A stretch of 32,971 nucleotides of DNA from a virus, in UHGV virus genome UHGV-0159523; one strand, 5' to 3'. Shown here one piece after another: positions 1 through 32,806 of the stretch; positions within the stretch are counted from its first letter, which is position 1; each line of letters begins with the position of its first letter. The notes beneath the pieces were generated by a model. It searched no databases. It worked only from the letters and a program-made list of their open reading frames with translations, and had not been told where the DNA came from. The position numbers and the translations under genes are program-made.

Positions 1-1527
<1,527 letters not shown>

Positions 1528-19963: not shown

Positions 19964-20716
19964 TTATCTCGTCACCCTTCTCAATTGTGCTTCAGCGTAA
20001 GCTTCCTCCTGCCAGCACTTTGTAACCAGTTTATCAATGACATCTGCATATCCTTTGTACCACTGATAATCCGTCAGGTCTGGTACCAGCTTCTGGACAT
20101 GAAGCCGCGCCAGTGTGGTTGGTAAACGGCTAAACCGGTTTCCATTGCAACGCCCACAAATCTTATAAACAGGCGTGCCATGAAGCCGGGTCCTTTTTTC
20201 ATCCAGGACAATACCTTTACCCTTACACCCTCTGCACGCGGTGCTGACTTCTCCCTTACCATGGCAATGCTGACATAGTTCCTTCACCCACTCTTCCTTG
20301 ATAACAGATTCCCCGCTTCTGGAGTGTTTCACCACTTCGCGCAATACATTATGAAATCCAGTACCAGCACAATGCTCACAGCGAGCCTTACTTGCCGCAG
20401 ACCTGGAATAATCAGCAAAGGCAAAATTCACAAGGTAAGGGATGATCTGTAACCGGGTTTCTTCACTCAATTTGTTCAATGTCGGGTTATCCAGTGCCAT
20501 CGCGTAATTGAACAGACCTTCAATCGCAAACTGAGGATCCTGAACACCAACTTTTGCCAGGAATAAGGCAAACCCAAGCGGTGCTTTCGACTGCACCATC
20601 CCCTGCGCAGCCATCACATCCGTAATCGTTAAACCACCTGAGCCTGTCGCCGGTGCGTCATCGCTCAATTTTGGAGATTTTGGGGAGTAATATTTTGGTA
20701 AGGCTTCAAGGTTCAT
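19964..20716 (-). CDS. Late-gene antiterminator Q-like protein, 250 aa from ATG 20716
   Basis: Cys-rich zinc-binding motifs (CEHCAGTG, CQHCHGKG, CRGCKGKG, CGRCNG); position immediately upstream of late leader/terminator and lysis genes; SD GGAGA before ATG 20714-20716. Confidence 0.7.
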   Translation of the reverse strand: MNLEALPKYYSPKSPKLSDDAPATGSGGLTITDVMAAQGMVQSKAPLGFALFLAKVGVQDPQFAIEGLFNYAMALDNPTLNKLSEETRLQIIPYLVNFAFADYSRSAASKARCEHCAGTGFHNVLREVVKHSRSGESVIKEEWVKELCQHCHGKGEVSTACRGCKGKGIVLDEKRTRLHGTPVYKICGRCNGNRFSRLPTTLARLHVQKLVPDLTDYQWYKGYADVIDKLVTKCWQEEAYAEAQLRRVTR

Positions 20717-20729
20717 GCTCGTTCTCCAC

Positions 20730-21701
20730 TTACGCCAGCACGCCAATTGCCTGCGCACGATCGATAAAACGAAATATCAGCTCCAGCTGGGAGCCATACT
20801 TCTCTTCAAATGCCACGGTATCCGCATGCAGCTCGTCGTGATGCTTTCTGCACAAAGGCAACACAAAGAGGTCATGCGCTTTTGTACCCATTCCACCCTG
20901 ACCGTGACCTATCAGGTGGTGGGGATCATCAGCAGGCTTTCCACAACATGCACACGGCTGTGTCTTAACCCAGCGGCGACGTTTTGGGCGTAACATAAAA
21001 GACTCCGGCGACTCCGGATCCACTTTCAGCGCCAGCACCTTTTTCGCCTTATCATGGATGATGCTGGTGGCAGGAATCGAAGGCACAAGGTCACTTTCCC
21101 GGGTGACAGACGGCACAACAGGCTTCGGTAATCTCAGTGCCTTACGGGCTGCACTTTCCGGTAAGGCATCCGCCAGGTCATTACGAATCAGCCACCAGCA
21201 CAGTTCCGGCATTGTCACAACGTGACTGTCATCAAAACCGAGATCCCGACGCACAACAGACAACACCCAGCGGGCACAGTTATCCGTTGCCATTGATTCC
21301 AGCCGTTCCGTGAACTGATCGCGCAGCTGGTTATCGCAGTGCCAGCACAGACGGATCGCGCCCGGCGCGTGTCGCATTGTGGTCATGTTCTCGCTGTGCC
21401 AGTCGGAATGAGGCCACTGACAGCCCTTTTCACGAAGTAACCAGCTTTCAAGACATTCCACGCCACCAGCACGACGGATCACTGCCTCATTGCAGAACAC
21501 GGCCCGAACGGCAGGATCATCCGCCAGCGGTTGTGATGCCGCGGGAACGGCACCACTGGCGAAAGATGAATAACGTTCCGGCTCAGGCTCCAGCAGGACA
21601 CGCCCCTGCATAAACAGGGGCATCAGCTCTGAACCGGGTCTGAACAATACGATCCCCATACGCGGGGCTATTTCAGTGGTCAGTAGTGCTCTCACGGTCA
21701 C
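20730..21701 (-). CDS. DUF968-family phage protein, 323 aa
   Basis: C-terminal Cys/His-rich segment CACCGKPADDPHHLIGHGQGG...CRKHHDELH; common lambdoid early-region gene. Confidence 0.55.
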   Translation of the reverse strand: MTVRALLTTEIAPRMGIVLFRPGSELMPLFMQGRVLLEPEPERYSSFASGAVPAASQPLADDPAVRAVFCNEAVIRRAGGVECLESWLLREKGCQWPHSDWHSENMTTMRHAPGAIRLCWHCDNQLRDQFTERLESMATDNCARWVLSVVRRDLGFDDSHVVTMPELCWWLIRNDLADALPESAARKALRLPKPVVPSVTRESDLVPSIPATSIIHDKAKKVLALKVDPESPESFMLRPKRRRWVKTQPCACCGKPADDPHHLIGHGQGGMGTKAHDLFVLPLCRKHHDELHADTVAFEEKYGSQLELIFRFIDRAQAIGVLA

Positions 21702-23244: not shown

Positions 23245-23738
23245 TAAGCCCCCACGTAATTCCCTGACAGATACCATTCATCACCCGATACAGCGCGCTT
23301 GCTGCTTTTCCGTAAGCACCGCTCTCGACGCGCCAGAAAGTTGTTTCGTTCTGGCTGGGAGTGACTTTCACGGAATGCCGCCATCCACACCGTTGCAGCA
23401 CGACGGTATAAGCCCCTGGACTCCAGCTCTTCAGCCTGGCGGGTCAGGCACAAAATCACCCGGGGATCGTTAGTGCCGACATAGAAATTGCGCACAGGTC
23501 TGGTTTCACGAACAGATTGTGGTTCCGGCTCCTGCGCTCTCTCAGTCAGGCGCGGGAAATGTCTGCGTGTATCTCCTTCACAACGGTGAGCCACACGCCC
23601 ACTCTGACGTAACTTGCTTGCTGACTGCAGAACGCGCTGCCGTGAGTAACCAGCAAAAGCATCTGCAATGTCTCCGGAAGTACAGCCCGGATGGGCTTCA
23701 ATGAATTTCTGAACGTCATTCAAAAGACTCATGATCAC
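23244..23738 (-). CDS. Hypothetical early protein with PerC-like C-terminal motif, 164 aa
   Basis: ORF track; C-terminal LYRRAATVWMAAFRESH...RRERC resembles the PerC-family pattern; assignment tentative. Confidence 0.4.
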   Translation of the reverse strand: MIMSLLNDVQKFIEAHPGCTSGDIADAFAGYSRQRVLQSASKLRQSGRVAHRCEGDTRRHFPRLTERAQEPEPQSVRETRPVRNFYVGTNDPRVILCLTRQAEELESRGLYRRAATVWMAAFRESHSQPERNNFLARRERCLRKSSKRAVSGDEWYLSGNYVGA

Positions 23739-24676
23739 CCCCTGAATCCTGCCGGGATCTGGCTGTAGTCCACGTTGCCGTAACTGGCTTTGAAGTACGG
23801 GTCTTCACGTTTTTCTGTGTGCGTGCTGACGGACGGCGATAAGCGCAGGGAAAGCTCATCCCATTTTTCCCGCAACTTCGACGGGCTGAGCACGTTACGG
23901 CACCAGAACGGATCGCGGCTGACGCGGCTGTACATCTCGCAGATTTGTTTGTGAGTACGACCATCCTGCACACACATCAGGCGAATTTCGTTTGCCCATG
24001 CTGTCCAGTTCGGTTCTTTGGGACGAACCACCTCGCCGTCACATTCGGCGGCCTGCTCGTACAGGGCAATGATTTTTTTCCAGAGCCACTGTGCGCAGGT
24101 CAAATCATCCTGCGTTCCCCACTGGCGCTTTTTAGGGCTGAATACAACCGCATCAGGATGGCGAGTTAAAAAATCCTGTTCAGCCGTCTGCGTGTCCGGT
24201 TGCGAAGCGTCCGGACGAGAAGGTTTTTTATCTGACGGATCATGTTTTGATTTTACTGACGGATCCCCGCCAGATTCTGACGGGTGAAAACCCGCTTTTT
24301 TGCCAGATTTCGACGCATCAAATTTTGACGGGTCAGATTTTGATGCGTCAGATTTTGACGGGTCAGAATCTGACAGTTGAGAAAATGCCGCTGCCTGAAG
24401 CTTCGCAACGTTAAGCTGATAAACATTCGACGCATTGCGGTTACCCTGGCGACGCGCCTTACGCGTTAACCAGCCTTCTGCTTCCAGCCGTGCGATAGCC
24501 GTTCTGACGGTACTCATCCCCGCGCCAATCTGGCGGGCAATGGTTTCAATTGATGGCCAGCACACACCTTCGTCATTACTGAAATCAGCCAAGCGGGCCA
24601 TAATTGCCACGCTGGATAATTTCATGCCTGACGCTGCGCAACCATCCCATACATAGCCGGTTAATTTAGTGCTCAT
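23735..24676 (-). CDS. Replication initiator, O-like (N-terminal wHTH, repeat linker, C-terminal domain), 313 aa
   Basis: N-terminal HTH (SIETIARQIGAGMSTVRTAIARLEAEGWL); internal peptide repeats SKSDASKSDPSKFDASKSG encoded by a DNA iteron array; SD AGAGG before ATG. Confidence 0.65.
   Translation of the reverse strand: MSTKLTGYVWDGCAASGMKLSSVAIMARLADFSNDEGVCWPSIETIARQIGAGMSTVRTAIARLEAEGWLTRKARRQGNRNASNVYQLNVAKLQAAAFSQLSDSDPSKSDASKSDPSKFDASKSGKKAGFHPSESGGDPSVKSKHDPSDKKPSRPDASQPDTQTAEQDFLTRHPDAVVFSPKKRQWGTQDDLTCAQWLWKKIIALYEQAAECDGEVVRPKEPNWTAWANEIRLMCVQDGRTHKQICEMYSRVSRDPFWCRNVLSPSKLREKWDELSLRLSPSVSTHTEKREDPYFKASYGNVDYSQIPAGFRG
24226..24379. repeat. Iteron array (putative origin of replication) inside the O-like gene
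   Basis: About eight copies of a 15-bp repeat (consensus agattttgacgggtc); four perfectly tandem between 24320 and 24379. Confidence 0.6.
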
Positions 24677-25600: not shown

Positions 25601-25864
25601 TTACGCAACTGAACCGCTAACTTTTGAATAGCACTCTGGTAATCCATCATTTGGATTTGGATAAATATCAGGACGCAGCTCATGGGGGGTTACGGACCAG
25701 TTCCCCAGCTCACAAAGTTGTAAAACTCGTTCCGACGGGACTTGATTGTTAATTACCCAATTAGCGACAGATTGAGTAGATTTAAAACCAAAGCGACGAG
25801 CTACTTCAGATAAAGACTTTCCCGCAGCCTTTACTGCTTTCTCGGTGTAGTTTTGAGATGACAT
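25601..25864 (-). CDS. Cro-like HTH repressor, 87 aa
   Basis: HTH KSLSEVARRFGFKSTQSVANWV; SD AGGAG; divergent from CI across a short operator region. Confidence 0.65.
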   Translation of the reverse strand: MSSQNYTEKAVKAAGKSLSEVARRFGFKSTQSVANWVINNQVPSERVLQLCELGNWSVTPHELRPDIYPNPNDGLPECYSKVSGSVA

Positions 25865-25896: not shown

Positions 25897-25934
25897 GCTA
25901 CTTAAAGTAGCGAATTGCAACTACTTAAAATAGA
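25897..25934. promoter_or_regulatory. OR-like operators: two copies of a 15-bp palindrome (gctacttaaagtagc and actacttaaaataga)
   Basis: First copy is a perfect odd-length palindrome; second is a near copy 23 bp away centre to centre; both lie in the 71-bp gap between divergent cro-like and cI starts. Confidence 0.55.
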
Positions 25935-25935
25935 A

Positions 25936-26676
25936 ATGACGAGCGTATGTGATGTGAGTAATCTTCTACCTATGGTAGAAGAACAGAAGTATCCAGATTT
26001 CGCCAAGAGACTAAACGAGTTAATGACAAACAAGGGAATTTCTGTCACCCAACTCAAAAGTCTTGTTGGCGTTACATATGAAATGGCGCGGCGATACACA
26101 ATCGGCGCAGCGAAGCCTCGTGCCTCTGTCATGAATAAACTTGCGTTGGCTCTGGGGGTATCGGCTTCATATTTAGAATATGGTGTTGGCGAGAGAGAAG
26201 GATGTAAGGAAATGGCAAGCATCCCCAATCCAACAAAACCCGACGTATACAGGATAGAAGTTTTAGATCTTAGCGTTAGCGCAGGACCTGGAACCTATAT
26301 GCTTTCAGACTATGTTGATGTGCTCTACGCCATTGAGTTCACAACAGAACATGCCCGTTCTCTTTTCGGTAACCGTTCTCAGGATGATATTAAGGTTATG
26401 ACTGTAAATGGCGATAGTATGTCCCCTACTCTCGTTTCCGGAGATCGACTGTTTGTCGACATTTCTGTTCGTCACTTCCAGACTGATGGAATTTACTCTT
26501 TCGTTTACGGTAAGACTTTTCATGTTAAACGTCTTCAAATGCAAGGTGACAAGCTAGCCGTTCTTTCGGATAACCCTGCCTATGAGAAATGGTACATCGA
26601 TGAAAAATCGCAGGATCAGCTTTATGTAATGGGCAAGGCGTTGATTCATGAGTCAATAAAATACAATCGGTTATAG
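25936..26676 (+). CDS. CI-like prophage repressor with C-terminal S24 (LexA-like) peptidase domain
   Basis: N-terminal HTH (FAKRLNELMTNKGISVTQLKSLVGVTYEMARRY); C-terminal VNGDSMSPTL and FHVKRL Ser/Lys dyad; ATG at 25936 may be leaderless, TTG at 25915 is the track start. Confidence 0.85.
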   Translation: MTSVCDVSNLLPMVEEQKYPDFAKRLNELMTNKGISVTQLKSLVGVTYEMARRYTIGAAKPRASVMNKLALALGVSASYLEYGVGEREGCKEMASIPNPTKPDVYRIEVLDLSVSAGPGTYMLSDYVDVLYAIEFTTEHARSLFGNRSQDDIKVMTVNGDSMSPTLVSGDRLFVDISVRHFQTDGIYSFVYGKTFHVKRLQMQGDKLAVLSDNPAYEKWYIDEKSQDQLYVMGKALIHESIKYNRL

Positions 26677-26691
26677 TTCTAAGGGCATATA

Positions 26692-27039
26692 ATGGCTAGT
26701 GAGCAGGGATTCGAAAAGATTAACATGGATATGTTGGTCTCTTATTTCTCAGAAAAGAATATATATCTAAAATGTACACTATGTGGACACGACAGATTGA
26801 CTGTGCCTCAAGTCAGCGCGAATGTGGGCATGCCATGTACTATGAAACTTGGTAGTTATGTGAATGTTTTTACTGAAAAAAGCATTTATTCTGATACTGC
26901 TAACCAGTATTACTTTTCACTAATATGCAACAATTGTGGAAATGAAATTCATATAAATGCGTTTTCAGTTTTGAACTGGGTAAATGAAAAGTTCCCAGCA
27001 AAAACGGAAGATGAAAAAAATGCCGACGCCGCAAAATAA
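26692..27039 (+). CDS. Small protein with two CxxC pairs (zinc-ribbon-like), 115 aa
   Basis: CTLCGH and CNNCGN about 50 residues apart; AT-rich; immediately downstream of cI on the same strand (rexA position). Confidence 0.5.
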   Translation: MASEQGFEKINMDMLVSYFSEKNIYLKCTLCGHDRLTVPQVSANVGMPCTMKLGSYVNVFTEKSIYSDTANQYYFSLICNNCGNEIHINAFSVLNWVNEKFPAKTEDEKNADAAK

Positions 27040-27391
27040 TGTAGTACCATTTAATAGTGAACTTCCCACAATTAGAAGACACGGTGGAGATGGCGGAGGT
27101 GATGACATGCTTGAAGCCCGAGTCGCTAAGTTAGAAGCGAATGTTGAGGATATAAAAACAAATCTCGCAGAGATGAGAGCTGACATTCGTGATTTGCGAA
27201 ACGCTCTCTCCGACACCCGACGCGATGTCGCTGTTATCCTTCAAAAACAAATAGATATAGATGAAAAGTTGTCAAAAAAACCTAGCCTAAGTGAAGTCAA
27301 CAGCGCTATTTCATCAGCCGTAAATAAACAGATCGCATGGACTGTTGCAACAGGCTTGGCGATTTTAGGTCTCGCCAAATTTATGTTTTGA
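27011..27391 (+). CDS. Coiled-coil protein with single C-terminal TM anchor (XhlA-like architecture); start 27011 or 27020
   Basis: Heptad-like charged region EARVAKLEANVEDIKTNLAEMRADIRDLRNAL followed by IAWTVATGLAILGLAKFMF at the extreme C-terminus; overlaps upstream gene end. Confidence 0.5.
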   Translation: MKKMPTPQNNVVPFNSELPTIRRHGGDGGGDDMLEARVAKLEANVEDIKTNLAEMRADIRDLRNALSDTRRDVAVILQKQIDIDEKLSKKPSLSEVNSAISSAVNKQIAWTVATGLAILGLAKFMF

Positions 27392-27696
27392 TAAGTTTTT
27401 GACTATGACCTGCCCTAGTTTTCTTACTATCGAGGCTAAATCACACAATCCATTGAGTAGTAAATTCCCTACCGTTTTACACTTAGCCTCCAAAAACTCA
27501 ACAATACTCTCATGATTGACTTCTCCCCACTTGATGATTAACTAGATCACATACTGATCTCAGCCACAATGAAACAATCCATCACGTTCTACAACTCAGC
27601 TAACTTCACAATATAATTTTTTGATCATAGCCCCAAAATATTTTACCTGTAAATTCAATGAATTAATTTCAAAATGCGTTTTTATGCCCTTAACTT

Positions 27697-27733
27697 CTAC
27701 TTTTTGTAGTTGATTTTTGCAACTTTAAGTAGC
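27697..27733. promoter_or_regulatory. OL-like operators: two copies related to the OR palindrome (ctactttttgtag, gcaactttaagtagc)
   Basis: Second site matches OR 15-mer at 13/15; first shares CTACTT...GTAG arms; 23-bp spacing as at OR; additional half-site aagtagc at 27774-27780. Confidence 0.45.
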
Positions 27734-27861
27734 AATATCATTTTACCGACAACGAACAGGCAGGACGCCCACGAAGTAGCCGCCTGGGGCATATGAAGTC
27801 CAGGATGATTCGTTGAGTCATGTTGTGCCACTAGGCACTCATGTTAAAGCAGGTGTATGAA

Positions 27862-28137
27862 ATGAAAGTCCAGATTTTAAACAATAACTGTGAAGTCGTT
27901 TGGTCATACGACATAGCCGCCCCTGTAGATCAGAGCGGCGATAGCTGGACCAATGGGAAACATCAGATTATGGCTGGAGTTGTGTTCTCTTTACGCCGTG
28001 CTTTGGAACAGGCTGAAGTATTTCCATCAGACCCTGAATGGAAATGGCCTTTTTCTATTTGTCCAAATTCGGAGAGCACATTTCAGAAAATTGGTCAGAA
28101 AGTCGCACTCGAAGAGCATCAGCCAACTGTTTCCTGA
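27862..28137 (+). CDS. Hypothetical early-left protein, 92 aa from ATG 27862
   Basis: SD AGGTG 7 nt upstream of ATG 27862; first ORF downstream of OL-like region; 3' end overlaps a convergent ORF. Confidence 0.35.
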   Translation: MKVQILNNNCEVVWSYDIAAPVDQSGDSWTNGKHQIMAGVVFSLRRALEQAEVFPSDPEWKWPFSICPNSESTFQKIGQKVALEEHQPTVS

Positions 28138-28300
28138 TTTTTTCAGGTAACTCGTCGGCATCGCAGAAACAACAACGCTCGATCATGTTGAAAGCCGATT
28201 CGTAGAACTGTTTCTGCTGAGTGTCGCTGAGACAGGAAAAGAGCGACGTTACGATGATTTTATTAATTGCATTATCAAGTTCTTTTTCATCAAAAGTCAT
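28055..28300 (-). CDS. Hypothetical small protein, 81 aa, antisense to the early-left operon
   Basis: SD AAGGA 7 nt upstream of ATG 28298-28300; Cys cluster ERCCFCDADE; overlaps the 3' end of 27862..28137 by 83 nt. Confidence 0.4.
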   Translation of the reverse strand: MTFDEKELDNAINKIIVTSLFSCLSDTQQKQFYESAFNMIERCCFCDADELPEKIRKQLADALRVRLSDQFSEMCSPNLDK

Positions 28301-28505
28301 TTGATTTTCCTTTTATGTATACGGGCTTAAAAGGATACCACCGAGCCTGAAGTGGTGAAAAGACAGGCACATAACAGCTAAGTATTTTCAACCAAAGAGA
28401 ATCCTTAGCGTTGTGGTGAATGCGGCTCAGCGCACGCGGGTTAAGGTTGAGGCTGACAGTCGACCTTCTGTGGATACCCACCCGTCTGGTGTGCAACCTT
28501 CGCCA

Positions 28506-28543
28506 GGCACCGGGAGGCACCCGGCACCCGGCACCCGGCACCA
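28506..28543. repeat. Tandem heptamer repeat GGCACC(C/G/A), five copies
   Basis: Read directly: ggcaccg gga ggcaccc ggcaccc ggcaccc ggcacca; within a GC-rich region lacking a convincing gene. Confidence 0.7.
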
Positions 28544-28751
28544 CAACTTTATGCTGTGTGTAGTCCTGGCGGTACCAGTTTGTACCCTTGCTTCCGGCTG
28601 GTACCGTCCTTTTTACAAAACAGAGAAGAGCATCACCGGACGACGGGCTCATAACCCAATCCAACCGGGCGGCTGCCACCGCAGGTGTTCTTCTCTGTTT
28701 TGTGGAGAAACTAATCGGCCTTGCAGGGTCGATATGATGAGGAGCAGCAAA

Positions 28752-29114
28752 ATGGCTAGCGAACGCAGTACTGATGTGCAGGCATTTATCGGGGAGCTGG
28801 ACGGCGGCGTATTTGAAACCAAAATCGGCGCAGTTCTCAGTGAAGTCGCTTCCGGTGTGATGAACACGAAAACCAAAGGTAAGGTCTCACTCAACCTGGA
28901 AATCGAACCATTTGATGAGAACCGTGTGAAAATCAAACACAAACTCTCATATGTTCGCCCGACTAACCGCGGGAAAATTTCCGAAGAAGACACCACCGAA
29001 ACGCCGATGTATGTCAATCGCGGTGGTCGCCTGACTATTCTGCAGGAAGACCAGGGACAATTACTGACTCTTGCCGGTGAACCTGACGGAAAACTCCGCG
29101 CAGCAGGTCATTAA
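28752..29114 (+). CDS. Hypothetical protein, 120 aa from ATG 28752 (size and position match CPS-53 YfdP as recalled)
   Basis: Strong SD GAGGAG 7 nt upstream of ATG 28752; the 113 in-frame upstream codons are Pro/Arg/Gly-rich and judged non-coding. Confidence 0.5.
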   Translation: MASERSTDVQAFIGELDGGVFETKIGAVLSEVASGVMNTKTKGKVSLNLEIEPFDENRVKIKHKLSYVRPTNRGKISEEDTTETPMYVNRGGRLTILQEDQGQLLTLAGEPDGKLRAAGH

Positions 29115-31326: not shown

Positions 31327-31676
31327 TGGAGCCATACAGCCTCACACTCGATGAGGCCTGTCATTTTCTCAAGATATCCAGACCGACTGCCATTAACTGG
31401 ATACGCACAGGGCGTCTTCAGGCAACACGCAAAGATCCCACTAAGAATAAATCTCCTTACCTCACAACACGACAAGCCTGCATTGCGGCTCTTCAGTCTC
31501 CGCTGCATACTGTCCAGGTGAGCGCGGGTGATGGCATAACAGAGGAAAGAAAATGTCACTCTTCCGCAGAGGTGAAATATGGTACGCCAGTTTCACATTG
31601 CCGAACGGTAAAAGATTTAAACAGTCTCTTGGAACAAAGGACAAAAGGCAGGCGACAGAACTCCATGACAAGCTAA
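31326..31676 (+). CDS. xis: Excisionase (AlpA/MerR-type HTH), 116 aa
   Basis: SD AGAGGTG; N-terminal [35 protein letters not shown]-binding motif; immediately upstream of and overlapping int. Confidence 0.7.
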
Positions 31677-32716
31677 AGGCTGAAGCATGGCGGGTCAGCA
31701 AACTTGGTGAAATACCTGATATAACGTTCGAGGAAGCGTGTGTCAGGTGGCTTGAAGAGAAAGCACATAAAAAATCACTGGACGATGACAAAAGCCGGAT
31801 CGGATTCTGGCTTCAACATTTCGCAGGAATGCAACTAAGAGACATTACTGAATCAAAAATTTATTCAGCAATGCAGAAAATGACGAACCGGCGTCATGAG
31901 GAAAACTGGAAACTCAGGGCAGAAGCATGCAGAAAAAAAGGGAAACCTGTTCCAGAATACACGCCAAAACCAGCGTCCGTTGCAACGAAGGCTACGCATC
32001 TTTCATTTATAAAGGCCCTACTAAGAGCCGCAGAGCGTGAATGGAAAATGCTGGATAAGGCACCAATTATTAAAGTGCCCCAATCAAAGAATAAACGGAT
32101 CCGCTGGCTGGAGCCCCATGAAGCACAAAGGCTGATTGATGAATGTCCGGAACCATTAAAGTCTGTTGTTGAATTTGCACTGGCAACAGGCCTAAGACGC
32201 TCGAACATCATCAACCTTGAATGGCAACAAATAGATATGCAGCGCCGGGTGGCATGGATAAACCCGGAAGAGAGTAAATCAAACCGCGCAATTGGCGTTG
32301 CGCTGAATGATACTGCATGTCGCGTATTGAAAAAACAAATCGGGAATCATCACCGTTGGGTATTTGTGTACAAGGAAAGCTGTACCAAACCAGACGGAAC
32401 GAAAGCGCCAACAGTCAGGAAGATGCGGTATGACGCAAACACAGCCTGGAAAGCGGCGCTGAGACGGGCTGGTATTGATGATTTTAGATTTCACGACTTG
32501 AGACACACCTGGGCAAGTTGGCTGGTTCAAGCCGGAGTCCCGTTGTCAGTGTTACAGGAAATGGGAGGCTGGGAGTCTATCGAAATGGTTCGTCGATATG
32601 CTCACCTTGCACCTAATCACCTTACCGAACACGCACGGCAAATAGACTCGATCCTAAACCCATCGGTCCCAAATTTGTCCCAGTCAAAAAATAAGGAAGG
32701 TACTAATGATGTGTAA
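31553..32716 (+). CDS. int: Tyrosine integrase (phage-type site-specific recombinase), 387 aa
   Basis: N-terminal [21 protein letters not shown] typical of enterobacterial phage integrases; catalytic HDLRHTW box and RRYAHL tyrosine motif; ends 15 bp from the tRNA 3' end. Confidence 0.9.
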
Positions 32717-32730
32717 CTTATTGATTTAAA

Positions 32731-32806
32731 TGGTGCCGATAATAGGAGTCGAACCTACGACCTTCGCATTACGAATGCGCTGCTCTACCAACTGAGCTAT
32801 ATCGGC
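32731..32806 (-). tRNA. thrW: tRNA-Thr (anticodon CGU), thrW-type; prophage attachment site at its 3' end
   Basis: Reverse complement folds as a 76-nt tRNA ending in CCA with anticodon loop TT-CGT-AA; sequence matches E. coli tRNA-Thr(CGU) as I recall it. Confidence 0.9.

What the first reader, a model, noticed from the sequence alone, without database searches (positions are those of the whole stretch)
27392..27861. OL-like operators with no recognisable N antiterminator gene downstream
Seen in sequence: the 470-bp AT-rich non-coding region after the cI-linked cassette contains operator-like sites at 27697-27733 (same 23-bp spacing as OR) plus a half-site at 27774-27780. The first downstream ORF is not Arg-rich and no N-like protein or convincing boxA/boxB pair is seen. 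Inference: early-left transcription may rely on a different antitermination mechanism (RNA-based as in HK022, or none), while Q-type late antitermination is retained.
Basis: partly seen in the sequence, partly recalled or inferred. Interest (0 to 1): 0.45.

Follow-up and report, generated by a model that had tools for sequence, protein, structure and literature searches.

The report
N-less PL region with conserved leader RNA
The region is the early-left operator/promoter of an SfV-type prophage that has no N antiterminator; its transcript instead begins with a 65-nt structured RNA, conserved in over 100 enterobacterial phages and absent from Rfam, which may be how such N-less phages control early transcription.

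Summary
Two 13-bp palindromic operators (CTACN5GTAG; 27697-27709 and 27720-27732) match the three OR sites, with the same 23-bp spacing, and overlap a PL promoter built like PR. No PL-operon ORF is N-like, there is no boxA, and a Q-like gene is present.

It lies in the invariant core of a leader RNA (27749-27817) that starts about 5 nt after the PL start.

This RNA has three helices. All 11 variable base pairs of P1 and P3 show compensatory changes (94.7% paired; 0 of 500 shuffles match). It occurs once per genome, almost always just downstream of the cI-type repressor gene. It is found in SfV/SfII/SfIV, ST64B, mEp237, SPN3UB, SEN34, ZF40, and Klebsiella, Yersinia and Pantoea phages, and at an early promoter of T5-like Providencia phages.

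It is not an HK022 put RNA: covariance models fail in both directions. It matches no Rfam family and has no conserved protein neighbour.

About 0.8 kb downstream lie an STnc100-like structured RNA and two strong hairpin terminators, ahead of yfdP through xis/int.

Best guess, about 0.35: a cis-acting, N-independent modulator of PL transcription, put-like in function only. That function is inferred, not shown.

The parts
25898..25978 (.). OR: three operators, CTACTTAAAGTAG (25898-25910), CTACTTAAAATAG (25921-25933) and CTACCTATGGTAG (25966-25978), between cro(-) and cI(+). Used as the reference for the OL sites.
   Evidence: Read directly from the sequence, PR has the layout TTGCAA-N17 (containing an operator)-CATTAT.
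25972..26676 (+). cI-type repressor gene (HTH_3 plus Peptidase_S24).
   Evidence: phrog_4, E = 6e-50; Peptidase_S24, E = 7e-17.
27697..27709 (.). OL operator, perfect palindrome CTACTTTTTGTAG, abutting the -35 hexamer of PL.
27720..27732 (.). OL operator CAACTTTAAGTAG, located in the PL spacer 23 bp from the first site.
27710..27738 (+). Inferred PL promoter: -35 TTGATT (27710-27715), 17-nt spacer, -10 CAATAT (27733-27738); inferred start near 27745. It has the same layout as PR.
   Evidence: Sequence reading. The identity boundary with heteroimmune SfV falls at 27749. In 32 of 49 related loci with a good promoter, the -10 ends 12-15 nt before helix P1. The start site has not been mapped experimentally.
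27749..27817 (+). Conserved leader RNA. P1 pairs 27751-27756 with 27809-27814. P2 pairs 27759-27761 with 27767-27769, with an invariant GGA in its loop. P3 pairs 27783-27787 with 27800-27804. The core GCCCACGAAGTAGCCG is invariant by construction, because it was the harvest pattern; J3/1 AUGA is nearly invariant.
   Evidence: covariation; model R2: 91.4 bits, single copy.
27824..27837 (+). Small hairpin GUGCC-ACUA-GGCAC. It is present only in the SfV-type subgroup, has no adjacent boxA, and is not a convincing boxB.
   Evidence: (z = -0.98).
27841..28137 (+). First PL ORF, equivalent to SfV orf33 (PGAP start at 27862). Unknown function, acidic, not N-like.
   Evidence: It is present in only about 11 of 89 loci that carry the leader.
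28055..28300 (-). Convergent overlapping 81-aa ORF (phrog_3311, unknown function). It is unresolved whether this ORF or orf33's 3' end is real.
   Evidence: PGAP does not call it.
28410..28547 (+). STnc100-like structured RNA domain closed by GUUGUGGUG/CACCACAAC. It contains GGCACCC x3, a 14-bp indel relative to SfV.
   Evidence: RF02076, 27.8 bits, below the gathering score of 47, E = 1e-3; z = -5.4 for 28300-28760; inverted repeat I8.
28568..28614 (+). T1: 13-bp hairpin followed by CCUUUUU. Intrinsic-terminator-like.
   Evidence: (-20.5 kcal/mol, z = -4.15).
28612..28705 (+). T2: 23-bp stem capped by two small hairpins, followed by UUUUGU. It is a conserved module found in 34 of 89 loci that carry the leader.
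   Evidence: -47.1 kcal/mol, z = -7.1.
28752..29114 (+). yfdP-like gene, the first gene beyond T1/T2. It is followed by yfdQ, yfdR, further genes, xis and int on the same strand.
19964..20758 (-). Q-like late antiterminator gene.
   Evidence: phrog_127, E = 1.2e-107.

Best explanation
27392-27861 is the early-left control region of an SfV-type lambdoid prophage that encodes no N protein.

Well supported:
- The CI repressor binds two CTACN5GTAG operators that overlap PL.
- The PL transcript starts near 27745 and almost at once forms a 65-nt three-helix RNA (27751-27814).
- This RNA belongs to a widespread family with strong covariation, found in phages of Enterobacterales.

Inferred:
- The RNA acts in cis on the transcription complex that makes it. 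It would keep RNA polymerase elongating through the long untranslated, structured stretch and the T1/T2 hairpin terminators (28568-28705).
- That would allow yfdP through xis/int to be expressed without N.
- In this sense it would be a functional analogue of HK022 put, though it is not a member of that family.
For: - Position. The identity boundary with heteroimmune SfV falls exactly at 27749, just 3' of OL/PL. In 32 of 49 loci with a good promoter, the -10 ends 12-15 nt before P1.
- Real RNA structure. 94.7% of cells pair; all 11 variable pairs of P1 and P3 have double changes; 0 of 500 shuffles reach the observed score; slid controls give 21-42%.
- Distribution. 91 distinct variants from more than 120 viral contigs, 49 GenBank phage records, and 7 Enterobacterales genomes.
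- Genomic context. 108 of 121 loci have a cI-type repressor gene just upstream on the same strand, and no downstream protein family is shared. In SPN3UB, SEN34, Klebsiella phi9.2, PHB10, ZF40, ST64B and mEp237 the element sits where N/nutL would be, ahead of kil, gam, recT or recE, and no N is annotated.
- Independence from lambdoid proteins. It also follows an early promoter in the terminal repeat of T5-like Providencia phages.
- Conservation pattern. The nearly invariant non-helical nucleotides fit recognition of a conserved host machine.
- Need for readthrough here. The window has no N, no boxA and no put. Two strong terminator hairpins lie between PL and the rest of the operon, with only 47 nt between T2 and yfdP.
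Against: - No experiment bears on function.
- Lys8385Vzw and mEp460 have PL, then an STnc100-like domain, T1, T2 and yfdP, with neither this leader nor N. Readthrough of T1/T2 therefore cannot depend universally on the leader.
- About 60% of leader-carrying loci lack T2.
- Terminator-like hairpins are no commoner on the sense strand than on the antisense strand downstream of the element (57/90 against 70/90).
- There is a single copy at PL and none at PR, unlike put.
- T2's 23-bp stem resembles the long-stem terminators that resist processive antitermination in plasmid pLS20 (PMC10325885).
- The wobble-pair test for the transcribed strand is uninformative (9 G.U against 7 A.C).
Confidence: 0.35

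Rival explanations
1. The leader RNA is a binding site for a protein. The protein could be a host factor (for example Nus factors, or CsrA, given the conserved GGA motifs) or an unrecognised phage factor, and it would control elongation, Rho access, translation or stability. This would resemble a nut site more than a self-sufficient put RNA.
For: - Invariant single-stranded nucleotides.
- GGA is kept in the P2 loop while its neighbours vary (AGGAC, AGGAU, AGGAA, AUGGA, AAGGAAA), and GGAUGA is kept at the P3/P1 junction.
- The element sits at the nutL position.
Against: - No protein family co-occurs downstream.
- orf33 is present in only about 11 of 89 loci.
- No boxA.
- The second GGA is partly inside helix P3.
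- The CsrA resemblance was judged by eye only.
Confidence: 0.2
2. The leader is excised or acts in trans as a small RNA: an immunity RNA of the P4 CI / P1 c4 kind, an sRNA, or a decoy against a host defence expressed at the very start of infection.
For: - A closing stem with internal hairpins recalls c4/CI RNAs.
- There is a 12-bp complementarity between the leader (27776-27787) and the T2 apex (28665-28676), plus a second similar site at 27914-27922.
- Its presence in the first-transferred DNA of T5-like phages would suit an anti-defence role.
Against: - Rfam's C4 model does not match anywhere in the window.
- The true C4 + isrK module of SfV, ST64B, mEp460 and Lys8385Vzw lies in the PR operon, inside SfV orf37 annotated 'immunity region', and is absent from this window.
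- The leader-T2 pairing is not significant (26 of 300 shuffles reach it) and is not conserved when the T2 apex varies.
- No terminator follows the element.
- The core is identical across heteroimmune phages, so it cannot carry immunity specificity.
Confidence: 0.15
3. The leader is a ligand-sensing riboswitch-like element or a 5' stabiliser that tunes expression of the toxic early-left genes (kil, recombination, excision).
For: - The P1-closed three-way architecture with conserved junctions is typical of riboswitch aptamers.
- It sits at the extreme 5' end of the transcript.
Against: - No conserved expression platform: the sequence diverges immediately 3' of P1.
- No Rfam riboswitch matches.
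- A stabiliser would not need an invariant core.
Confidence: 0.12
4. There is no early-left antitermination. T1/T2 simply end a short immediate-early transcript (leader, orf33 and an STnc100-like RNA), and the distal genes are reached by leaky readthrough or by other promoters.
For: - T2 is very strong and has a long stem (PMC10325885).
- STnc100 relatives are known as discrete prophage sRNAs (PMC13192938).
- Lys8385Vzw-type phages have T1/T2 with no obvious antiterminator.
Against: - Only 47 nt separate T2 from yfdP.
- No promoter-like site was found there.
- All of yfdP through xis/int lie on the same strand downstream.
Confidence: 0.13

Closest known systems
HK022 put RNAs (putL/putR), including HK639, HK75, phiEt88 and others
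   Same: A structured RNA of about 65-70 nt at the very start of the PL transcript of a lambdoid phage that lacks N. Stems covary around conserved unpaired bases. There is no dedicated protein partner nearby.
   Different: No sequence or structure homology: model R1 gives no hit, best 11.8 bits elsewhere in the window, and model R2 finds nothing in HK022 or HK639. The architecture differs: a closing stem P1 enclosing two hairpins, against two side-by-side stem-loops. There is one copy at PL only, none at PR. Activity is untested.
Lambda N / nutL (boxA + boxB)
   Same: The same genomic slot, between PL and the kil/recombination/excision genes, with terminators downstream.
   Different: No N-like or arginine-rich protein and no boxA. 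The conserved RNA is far larger than a boxB hairpin.
P4 CI RNA / P1-P7 c4 antisense RNA (Rfam C4, with isrK)
   Same: T2 shares the gross shape of a long closing stem capped by two hairpins. SfV-type phages do carry a true C4 + isrK module.
   Different: That module lies in the PR operon (SfV orf37 'immunity region') and is missing from this window. Neither the leader nor T2 matches the C4 model.
STnc100 (RF02076), a prophage sRNA family
   Same: Window 28415-28528 aligns to model positions 34-144, with the same closing stem and terminal hairpin. ST64B scores 35.1 bits.
   Different: Scores are below the gathering threshold of 47. This element lies outside the finding's coordinates, and its function is unknown.
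Phage SfV early-left region (U82619: orf33, annotated 'terminator', orf32)
   Same: 98% identical from 27749 onward.
   Different: The immunity specificity differs (operators and cI), and SfV lacks the two-gene cassette after cI. The SfV record annotates no RNA at the leader.

Membership tests
HK022 put antiterminator RNA | Match to the put sequence/structure consensus (two stem-loops; CGAACGGC and GGCAAU motifs) | tested here: not met
   Model R1, built from 7 put sequences, recovers HK022 putL and putR and HK639 putL at 47-95 bits. It scores at most 11.8 bits in the window, away from PL, and gives nothing in 11 related loci.
HK022 put antiterminator RNA | Located just downstream of the early promoter | tested here: met
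   The element starts about 5 nt after the inferred PL start.
HK022 put antiterminator RNA | Copies in both the PL and PR operons | tested here: not met
   Model R2 finds one copy per locus, always on the PL side.
HK022 put antiterminator RNA | Factor-independent antitermination that is blocked by mutations in the RNA polymerase beta' zinc-binding domain | not testable with these tools
   Requires reporter assays or in vitro transcription.
Lambda N / nut antitermination | A small arginine-rich N protein encoded first after PL | tested here: not met
   No N family appears in Pfam or PHROGs for any PL-operon ORF. The first ORF has 2% Arg. The only Arg-enriched small ORF (28420-28563) has no Shine-Dalgarno sequence, lies inside structured RNA, and is frameshifted by a 14-bp indel relative to SfV.
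Lambda N / nut antitermination | A boxA (YGCTCTTTA) followed by a boxB hairpin in the leader | tested here: not met
   No boxA lies between PL and 29000 or downstream of PR. Window-wide counts are at chance level (17 observed against 12.2 expected). The hairpin at 27824-27837 is not significant.
P4 CI / P1 c4 antisense-RNA immunity (Rfam C4) | Match to the C4 covariance model | tested here: not met
   No C4 or isrK hit in the window at gathering score or at E <= 10. Both are found in the PR operons of SfV, ST64B, mEp460 and Lys8385Vzw.
P4 CI / P1 c4 antisense-RNA immunity (Rfam C4) | Loops complementary to target sites in the same operon, covarying between phages | tested here: inconclusive
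   A 12-bp leader-T2 duplex exists, but 26 of 300 shuffles do as well, and the pairing is lost in loci where the T2 apex differs.
STnc100 (RF02076) | Score at or above Rfam's gathering threshold | tested here: inconclusive
   27.8 bits against a threshold of 47, E = 1e-3, covering model positions 34-144 only.
Lambdoid CI/operator switch | The same repeated palindromic operator at OR and OL, overlapping divergent or early promoters, next to an S24 repressor and a cro gene | tested here: met
Q-type late antitermination | A Q-family protein encoded upstream of the lysis genes | tested here: met
   phrog_127, E = 1e-107, at 19964-20758(-); holin and endolysin genes lie downstream.

The most novel reading that the evidence does not exclude
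The 65-nt leader is a second, unrelated class of self-sufficient RNA that modifies RNA polymerase. It would replace N at PL in a large share of N-less temperate phages of Enterobacterales, and would also be used by T5-like phages for pre-early transcription.
Probability: 0.3. Interest if true: 0.82.

Novelty: new variant of a known kind. Interest (0 to 1): 0.6.

Why it matters
Many lambdoid phages have no recognisable N, and specialists still only guess that they use put-like RNAs (for example the remark on phage LLS in PMC12315714). Known put RNAs are confined to a small group of HK022 relatives (24 records, of which three Gordonia hits near E = 0.6 are probably chance matches).

A different conserved RNA, supported by covariation, at the same position in more than 100 phage genomes gives that question a concrete target: 65 nt that can be mutated and tested.

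If it is not an antiterminator, it is still an uncatalogued, widespread RNA made at the very start of the early-left transcript on induction or infection.

Tried and rejected
- Put homology seen by eye (shared ACGAAC and CAGGAUGA). Rejected by covariance models in both directions.
- P4-like pairing between the leader and T2. Not significant and not conserved.
- A remembered lead that Roberts, Allison and Verma 2007 (J Gen Virol 88:3187; not held in the library) concerned this region. Rfam places the SfV C4 + isrK immunity RNAs in the PR operon (orf37), and this window lacks them.
- Enrichment of intrinsic terminators downstream of the element. My first finder was far too permissive. A stricter one showed no excess on the sense strand.
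- G.U against A.C counts to fix the transcribed strand. Uninformative.
- orf33 as a hidden N analogue or as a partner of T2. It co-occurs with only 10 of 34 T2 loci.
- A copy in the E. coli K-12 Rac prophage. Only a degenerate remnant lies downstream of racR, and the annotated sRNA KilS is elsewhere.
- Resemblances judged by eye to the ZTP riboswitch (CCGCCUGGGC), hammerhead, k-turn or C-box, and ops. These are either not conserved across the family or not matched by Rfam.
- A literature search for the core sequence found no paper.
- King et al. 2011 and the SfV genome paper are not held in the library.

Full report
**What the window is**

The window is a lambdoid prophage of the SfV/SfII/SfIV type.
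- An integrase gene (31553-32716) sits next to a tRNA gene (anticodon CGU by my reading of the alignment, so probably tRNA-Thr) at 32734-32806(-).
- The cI gene runs rightward at 25972-26676, and cro leftward at 25601-25864.
- A cII-like gene, replication genes and a Q-like gene lie further left.
- The early-left (PL) operon is therefore transcribed on the + strand.
- From 27749 to beyond 29120 the window is 98% identical to phage SfV (U82619). Upstream of 27749 the two are unrelated. This boundary separates the immunity-specific part (cI, operators, promoter) from the shared early-left module.

**Checking the observation**

The operator motif CTACTTWWWGTAG, with up to two mismatches, gives nine strand-matches in the window.
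- All nine fall in two clusters. OR has sites at 25898-25910, 25921-25933 and 25966-25978. OL has sites at 27697-27709 and 27720-27732.
- Chance expectation is 2.0, and none of 100 shuffles reaches nine.
- The first two sites are 23 bp apart in both clusters.

Read directly from the sequence, PL and PR have the same layout.
- PL is TTGATT-TTTGCAACTTTAAGTAG-CAATAT (27710-27738).
- PR is TTGCAA-TTCGCTACTTTAAGTAG-CATTAT.
- Each has an operator inside the spacer.

Other points hold as well.
- The region has 37.9% GC, against 50.6% for the window.
- PGAP calls no gene here in a near-identical E. coli prophage.
- No ORF of the PL operon matches an N family. The first ORF has 2% arginine. There is no boxA. 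The one arginine-enriched small ORF (28420-28563) lacks a ribosome-binding site, lies inside structured RNA, and is frameshifted by a 14-bp indel relative to SfV.
- A Q-like gene is present.

**What the half-site really is**

A distant BLAST search with 27690-27865 showed that 27749-27814 alone is conserved at 80-99% identity in non-coding DNA of 49 phage records. These include:
- SfV, SfII and SfIV;
- ST64B, SEN34, SPN3UB and FSL SP-016;
- mEp237 and mEp460_4F5;
- Yersinia YeP1-3 and Pantoea AH07;
- Klebsiella and Citrobacter phages;
- Pectobacterium ZF40;
- two T5-like Providencia phages.

These gave 91 distinct variants of the 69-nt element.

An alignment of 50 of these variants (A5) supports three helices:
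- P1: 27751-27756 with 27809-27814;
- P2: a small hairpin GGC-loop-GCC, 27759-27761 with 27767-27769;
- P3: 27783-27787 with 27800-27804.

- Across the 14 pairs, 94.7% of cells are standard pairs.
- All 11 variable pairs of P1 and P3 carry compensatory double changes. For example, P1 reads AACGAA/UUCGUU, AGCGAA/UUCGCU, ACCACC/GGUGGU or GGAAC/GUUCC in different phages.
- None of 500 shuffles reaches the observed covariation.
- Sliding the 3' partners by 1-3 columns drops pairing to 21-42%.

Conserved unpaired features are as follows.
- The harvest core is invariant by construction.
- The J3/1 sequence AUGA is nearly invariant.
- The P2 loop always contains GGA although its other bases vary.
- The P3 loop follows GGCRNAYGAA.

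The thermodynamic fold of the single window sequence is unremarkable (z = -1.8). The evidence for structure is comparative.

**Context of the family**

- In 108 of 121 loci, a cI-type S24 repressor gene lies just upstream on the same strand. No downstream protein family is shared. The next genes are variously yfdP-like, kil, orf33, recE-like, gam/recT or unknowns, and none is N-like in PHROGs.
- In annotated phages the order is cro <- | cI -> (accessory genes) -> element -> small ORFs -> recombination genes, with no N annotated.
- Where a good sigma-70 promoter can be recognised, its -10 ends 12-15 nt before P1 in 32 of 49 cases. The RNA therefore begins about 5 nt into the transcript, as inferred for the window.
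- In the T5-like phage PR1, the element follows a promoter in the terminal repeat, upstream of the A2/A1 pre-early genes.
- A scan of one genome per species returned mostly chance 16-mers from GC-rich genomes. Model R2 validated seven hits, all Enterobacterales: Xenorhabdus (two), E. coli, Leclercia, Enterobacter, Pantoea and Kosakonia.
- Each locus has exactly one copy, never on the PR side.

**Comparison with known families**

- Rfam 15 has nothing on the leader, even at E <= 10 with permissive filters.
- A put model (R1) was built from HK022 putL and putR, HK639 putL, phiEt88, UPF_BP1, CobraSix and S9-5. It recovers HK022 putL and putR and HK639 putL at 47-95 bits but finds nothing in the window or in 11 related loci.
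- Conversely, R2 finds nothing in HK022 or HK639. The element is not a put RNA.
- It is not a nut site in the lambda sense, because there is no N and no boxA.
- My remembered lead, that SfV has a published RNA-based immunity mediated by termination, turned out to concern a different place. Rfam finds true C4 and isrK RNAs inside SfV orf37 (annotated "immunity region") and at the equivalent place in ST64B, mEp460 and Lys8385Vzw. All of these lie in the PR operon, and the window lacks the module.

**Downstream of the leader in the window**

- orf33 (27841 or 27862 to 28137) overlaps a convergent 81-aa ORF (28055-28300). Both belong to PHROGs of unknown function.
- The stretch 28300-28760 is non-coding and strongly structured (z = -5.4).
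- It contains a domain closed by GUUGUGGUG/CACCACAAC that weakly matches the prophage sRNA family STnc100 (27.8 bits, below threshold).
- Next comes T1, a 13-bp hairpin followed by CCUUUUU (-20.5 kcal/mol).
- Then comes T2, a 23-bp stem capped by two hairpins and followed by UUUUGU (-47.1 kcal/mol, z = -7.1).
- Only 47 nt then separate T2 from yfdP, which is followed by yfdQ, yfdR and further genes through xis and int on the same strand.
- T2 is itself a conserved module, present in 34 of 89 non-redundant leader-carrying loci. Only 10 of those 34 have orf33.

**Mechanism**

Shown:
- CI-type operators overlap PL.
- A conserved, covarying RNA forms the 5' end of the PL transcript.
- There is no N, no nut site and no put.
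- Strong terminator hairpins lie before the distal genes.

Inferred:
- The leader acts in cis on elongating RNA polymerase, giving N-independent readthrough. I give this about 0.35.

Reasons for caution:
- Lys8385Vzw and mEp460 carry PL, the STnc100-like domain, T1, T2 and yfdP with neither the leader nor N. T1/T2 readthrough therefore has another solution in those phages, possibly the STnc100-like domain itself.
- Most leader-carrying loci lack T2.
- My terminator-enrichment test was uninformative.
- The element is confined to PL.
- Very long terminator stems resist processive antitermination in at least one system (PMC10325885).

Rival explanations:
- a protein-binding site, for a host factor such as CsrA or the Nus factors, or for an unknown phage factor;
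- a processed or trans-acting small RNA, or an early anti-defence decoy;
- a riboswitch or a 5' stabiliser;
- no antitermination at all.

**Novelty**

The absence of N from SfV-type phages is already implicit in their published annotations. The operators and Q gene are ordinary.

What appears to be new is the leader RNA family.
- It is absent from Rfam 15.
- It is unannotated in every record I inspected.
- Its core sequence appears in no paper in the searchable library.

I class it as a new variant of a known kind: an RNA element at the putL/nutL position of N-less lambdoid phages. The kind itself, antitermination, still has to be demonstrated.

Noticed in passing
window 28410-28547; L260 4345-4492; L003 2855-2973: An STnc100-like structured RNA domain, closed by GUUGUGGUG/CACCACAAC, sits directly upstream of T1/T2. 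In Lys8385Vzw it comes immediately after PL, with no leader RNA and no N. It may be the PL-to-T1 short transcript known elsewhere as the sRNA STnc100, or a regulator of T1/T2.
   Followed up: partly
window 28612-28705: T2 is a conserved RNA module present in 34 of 89 loci. It has a 23-bp stem, a conserved GGGCUCAUAACCC hairpin and a variable second hairpin. Its overall shape resembles P4 CI/C4 RNA, but it does not match the Rfam C4 model.
   Followed up: partly
window 28514-28527: The heptamer GGCACCC is present three times here. The alignment with SfV shows a 14-bp (two-unit) gap in SfV at this point, inside the structured RNA. The copy number therefore varies.
   Followed up: no
window 27841-28137 (+) and 28055-28300 (-): Two convergent ORFs overlap by 83 bp. 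Each has its own PHROG family (3195 and 3311) of unknown function. PGAP calls only the + strand ORF.
   Followed up: partly
window 26692-27391: A two-gene cassette sits between cI and OL, in the position that rexAB occupies in lambda. The first gene is a Cys-rich protein (phrog_4293, weak CpXC match). The second (phrog_3556) gives weak matches to hemolysin and holin PHROG families. SfV lacks this cassette, which may be an exclusion or defence moron.
   Followed up: no
L001 815-1003 (-); L003 245-433 (-); L259 1823-2011 (-); L260 2128-2313 (-): True Rfam C4 antisense RNA plus isrK elements lie inside the genes annotated as SfV orf37 'immunity region', ST64B sb41, and the Rha/antirepressor-like genes of mEp460 and Lys8385Vzw. 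This P1/P4-style RNA immunity module is in the PR operon and is absent from this window.
   Followed up: partly
window 1-59 (-): A partial isrC sRNA match (59.7 bits, cut off at the window edge) lies at the far left end of the window.
   Followed up: no
window 24250-24420: The replication (O-like) gene 23735-24676(-) encodes repeated PSKSDASKSD-type peptides, and alternative frames read QILTGQIL repeats. This points to tandem DNA repeats, probably origin iterons within the gene.
   Followed up: no
L258 8517-8600 (-) (E. coli K-12 Rac prophage, between racR and ydaG): A degenerate relative of the leader RNA (10.4 bits; AAGUAGCCaGCCCGAGGCGUAUGAA) follows a consensus-like promoter (TTGACA-N17-TATAGT) downstream of racR. 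The annotated sRNA KilS lies about 1 kb further on and is unrelated.
   Followed up: partly
L003 2570-2850; L014, L100 and L117 downstream of the leader: In ST64B-like phages the leader is followed by several hundred nucleotides containing further conserved GC-rich structured modules (for example GGUGUCUUCGGGAGGGG...CCCGCCCGAAGAUACC) before the STnc100-like domain. ST64B annotates no CDS there; I did not check the other loci for ORFs. The PL leader may therefore be a long multi-domain RNA.
   Followed up: no
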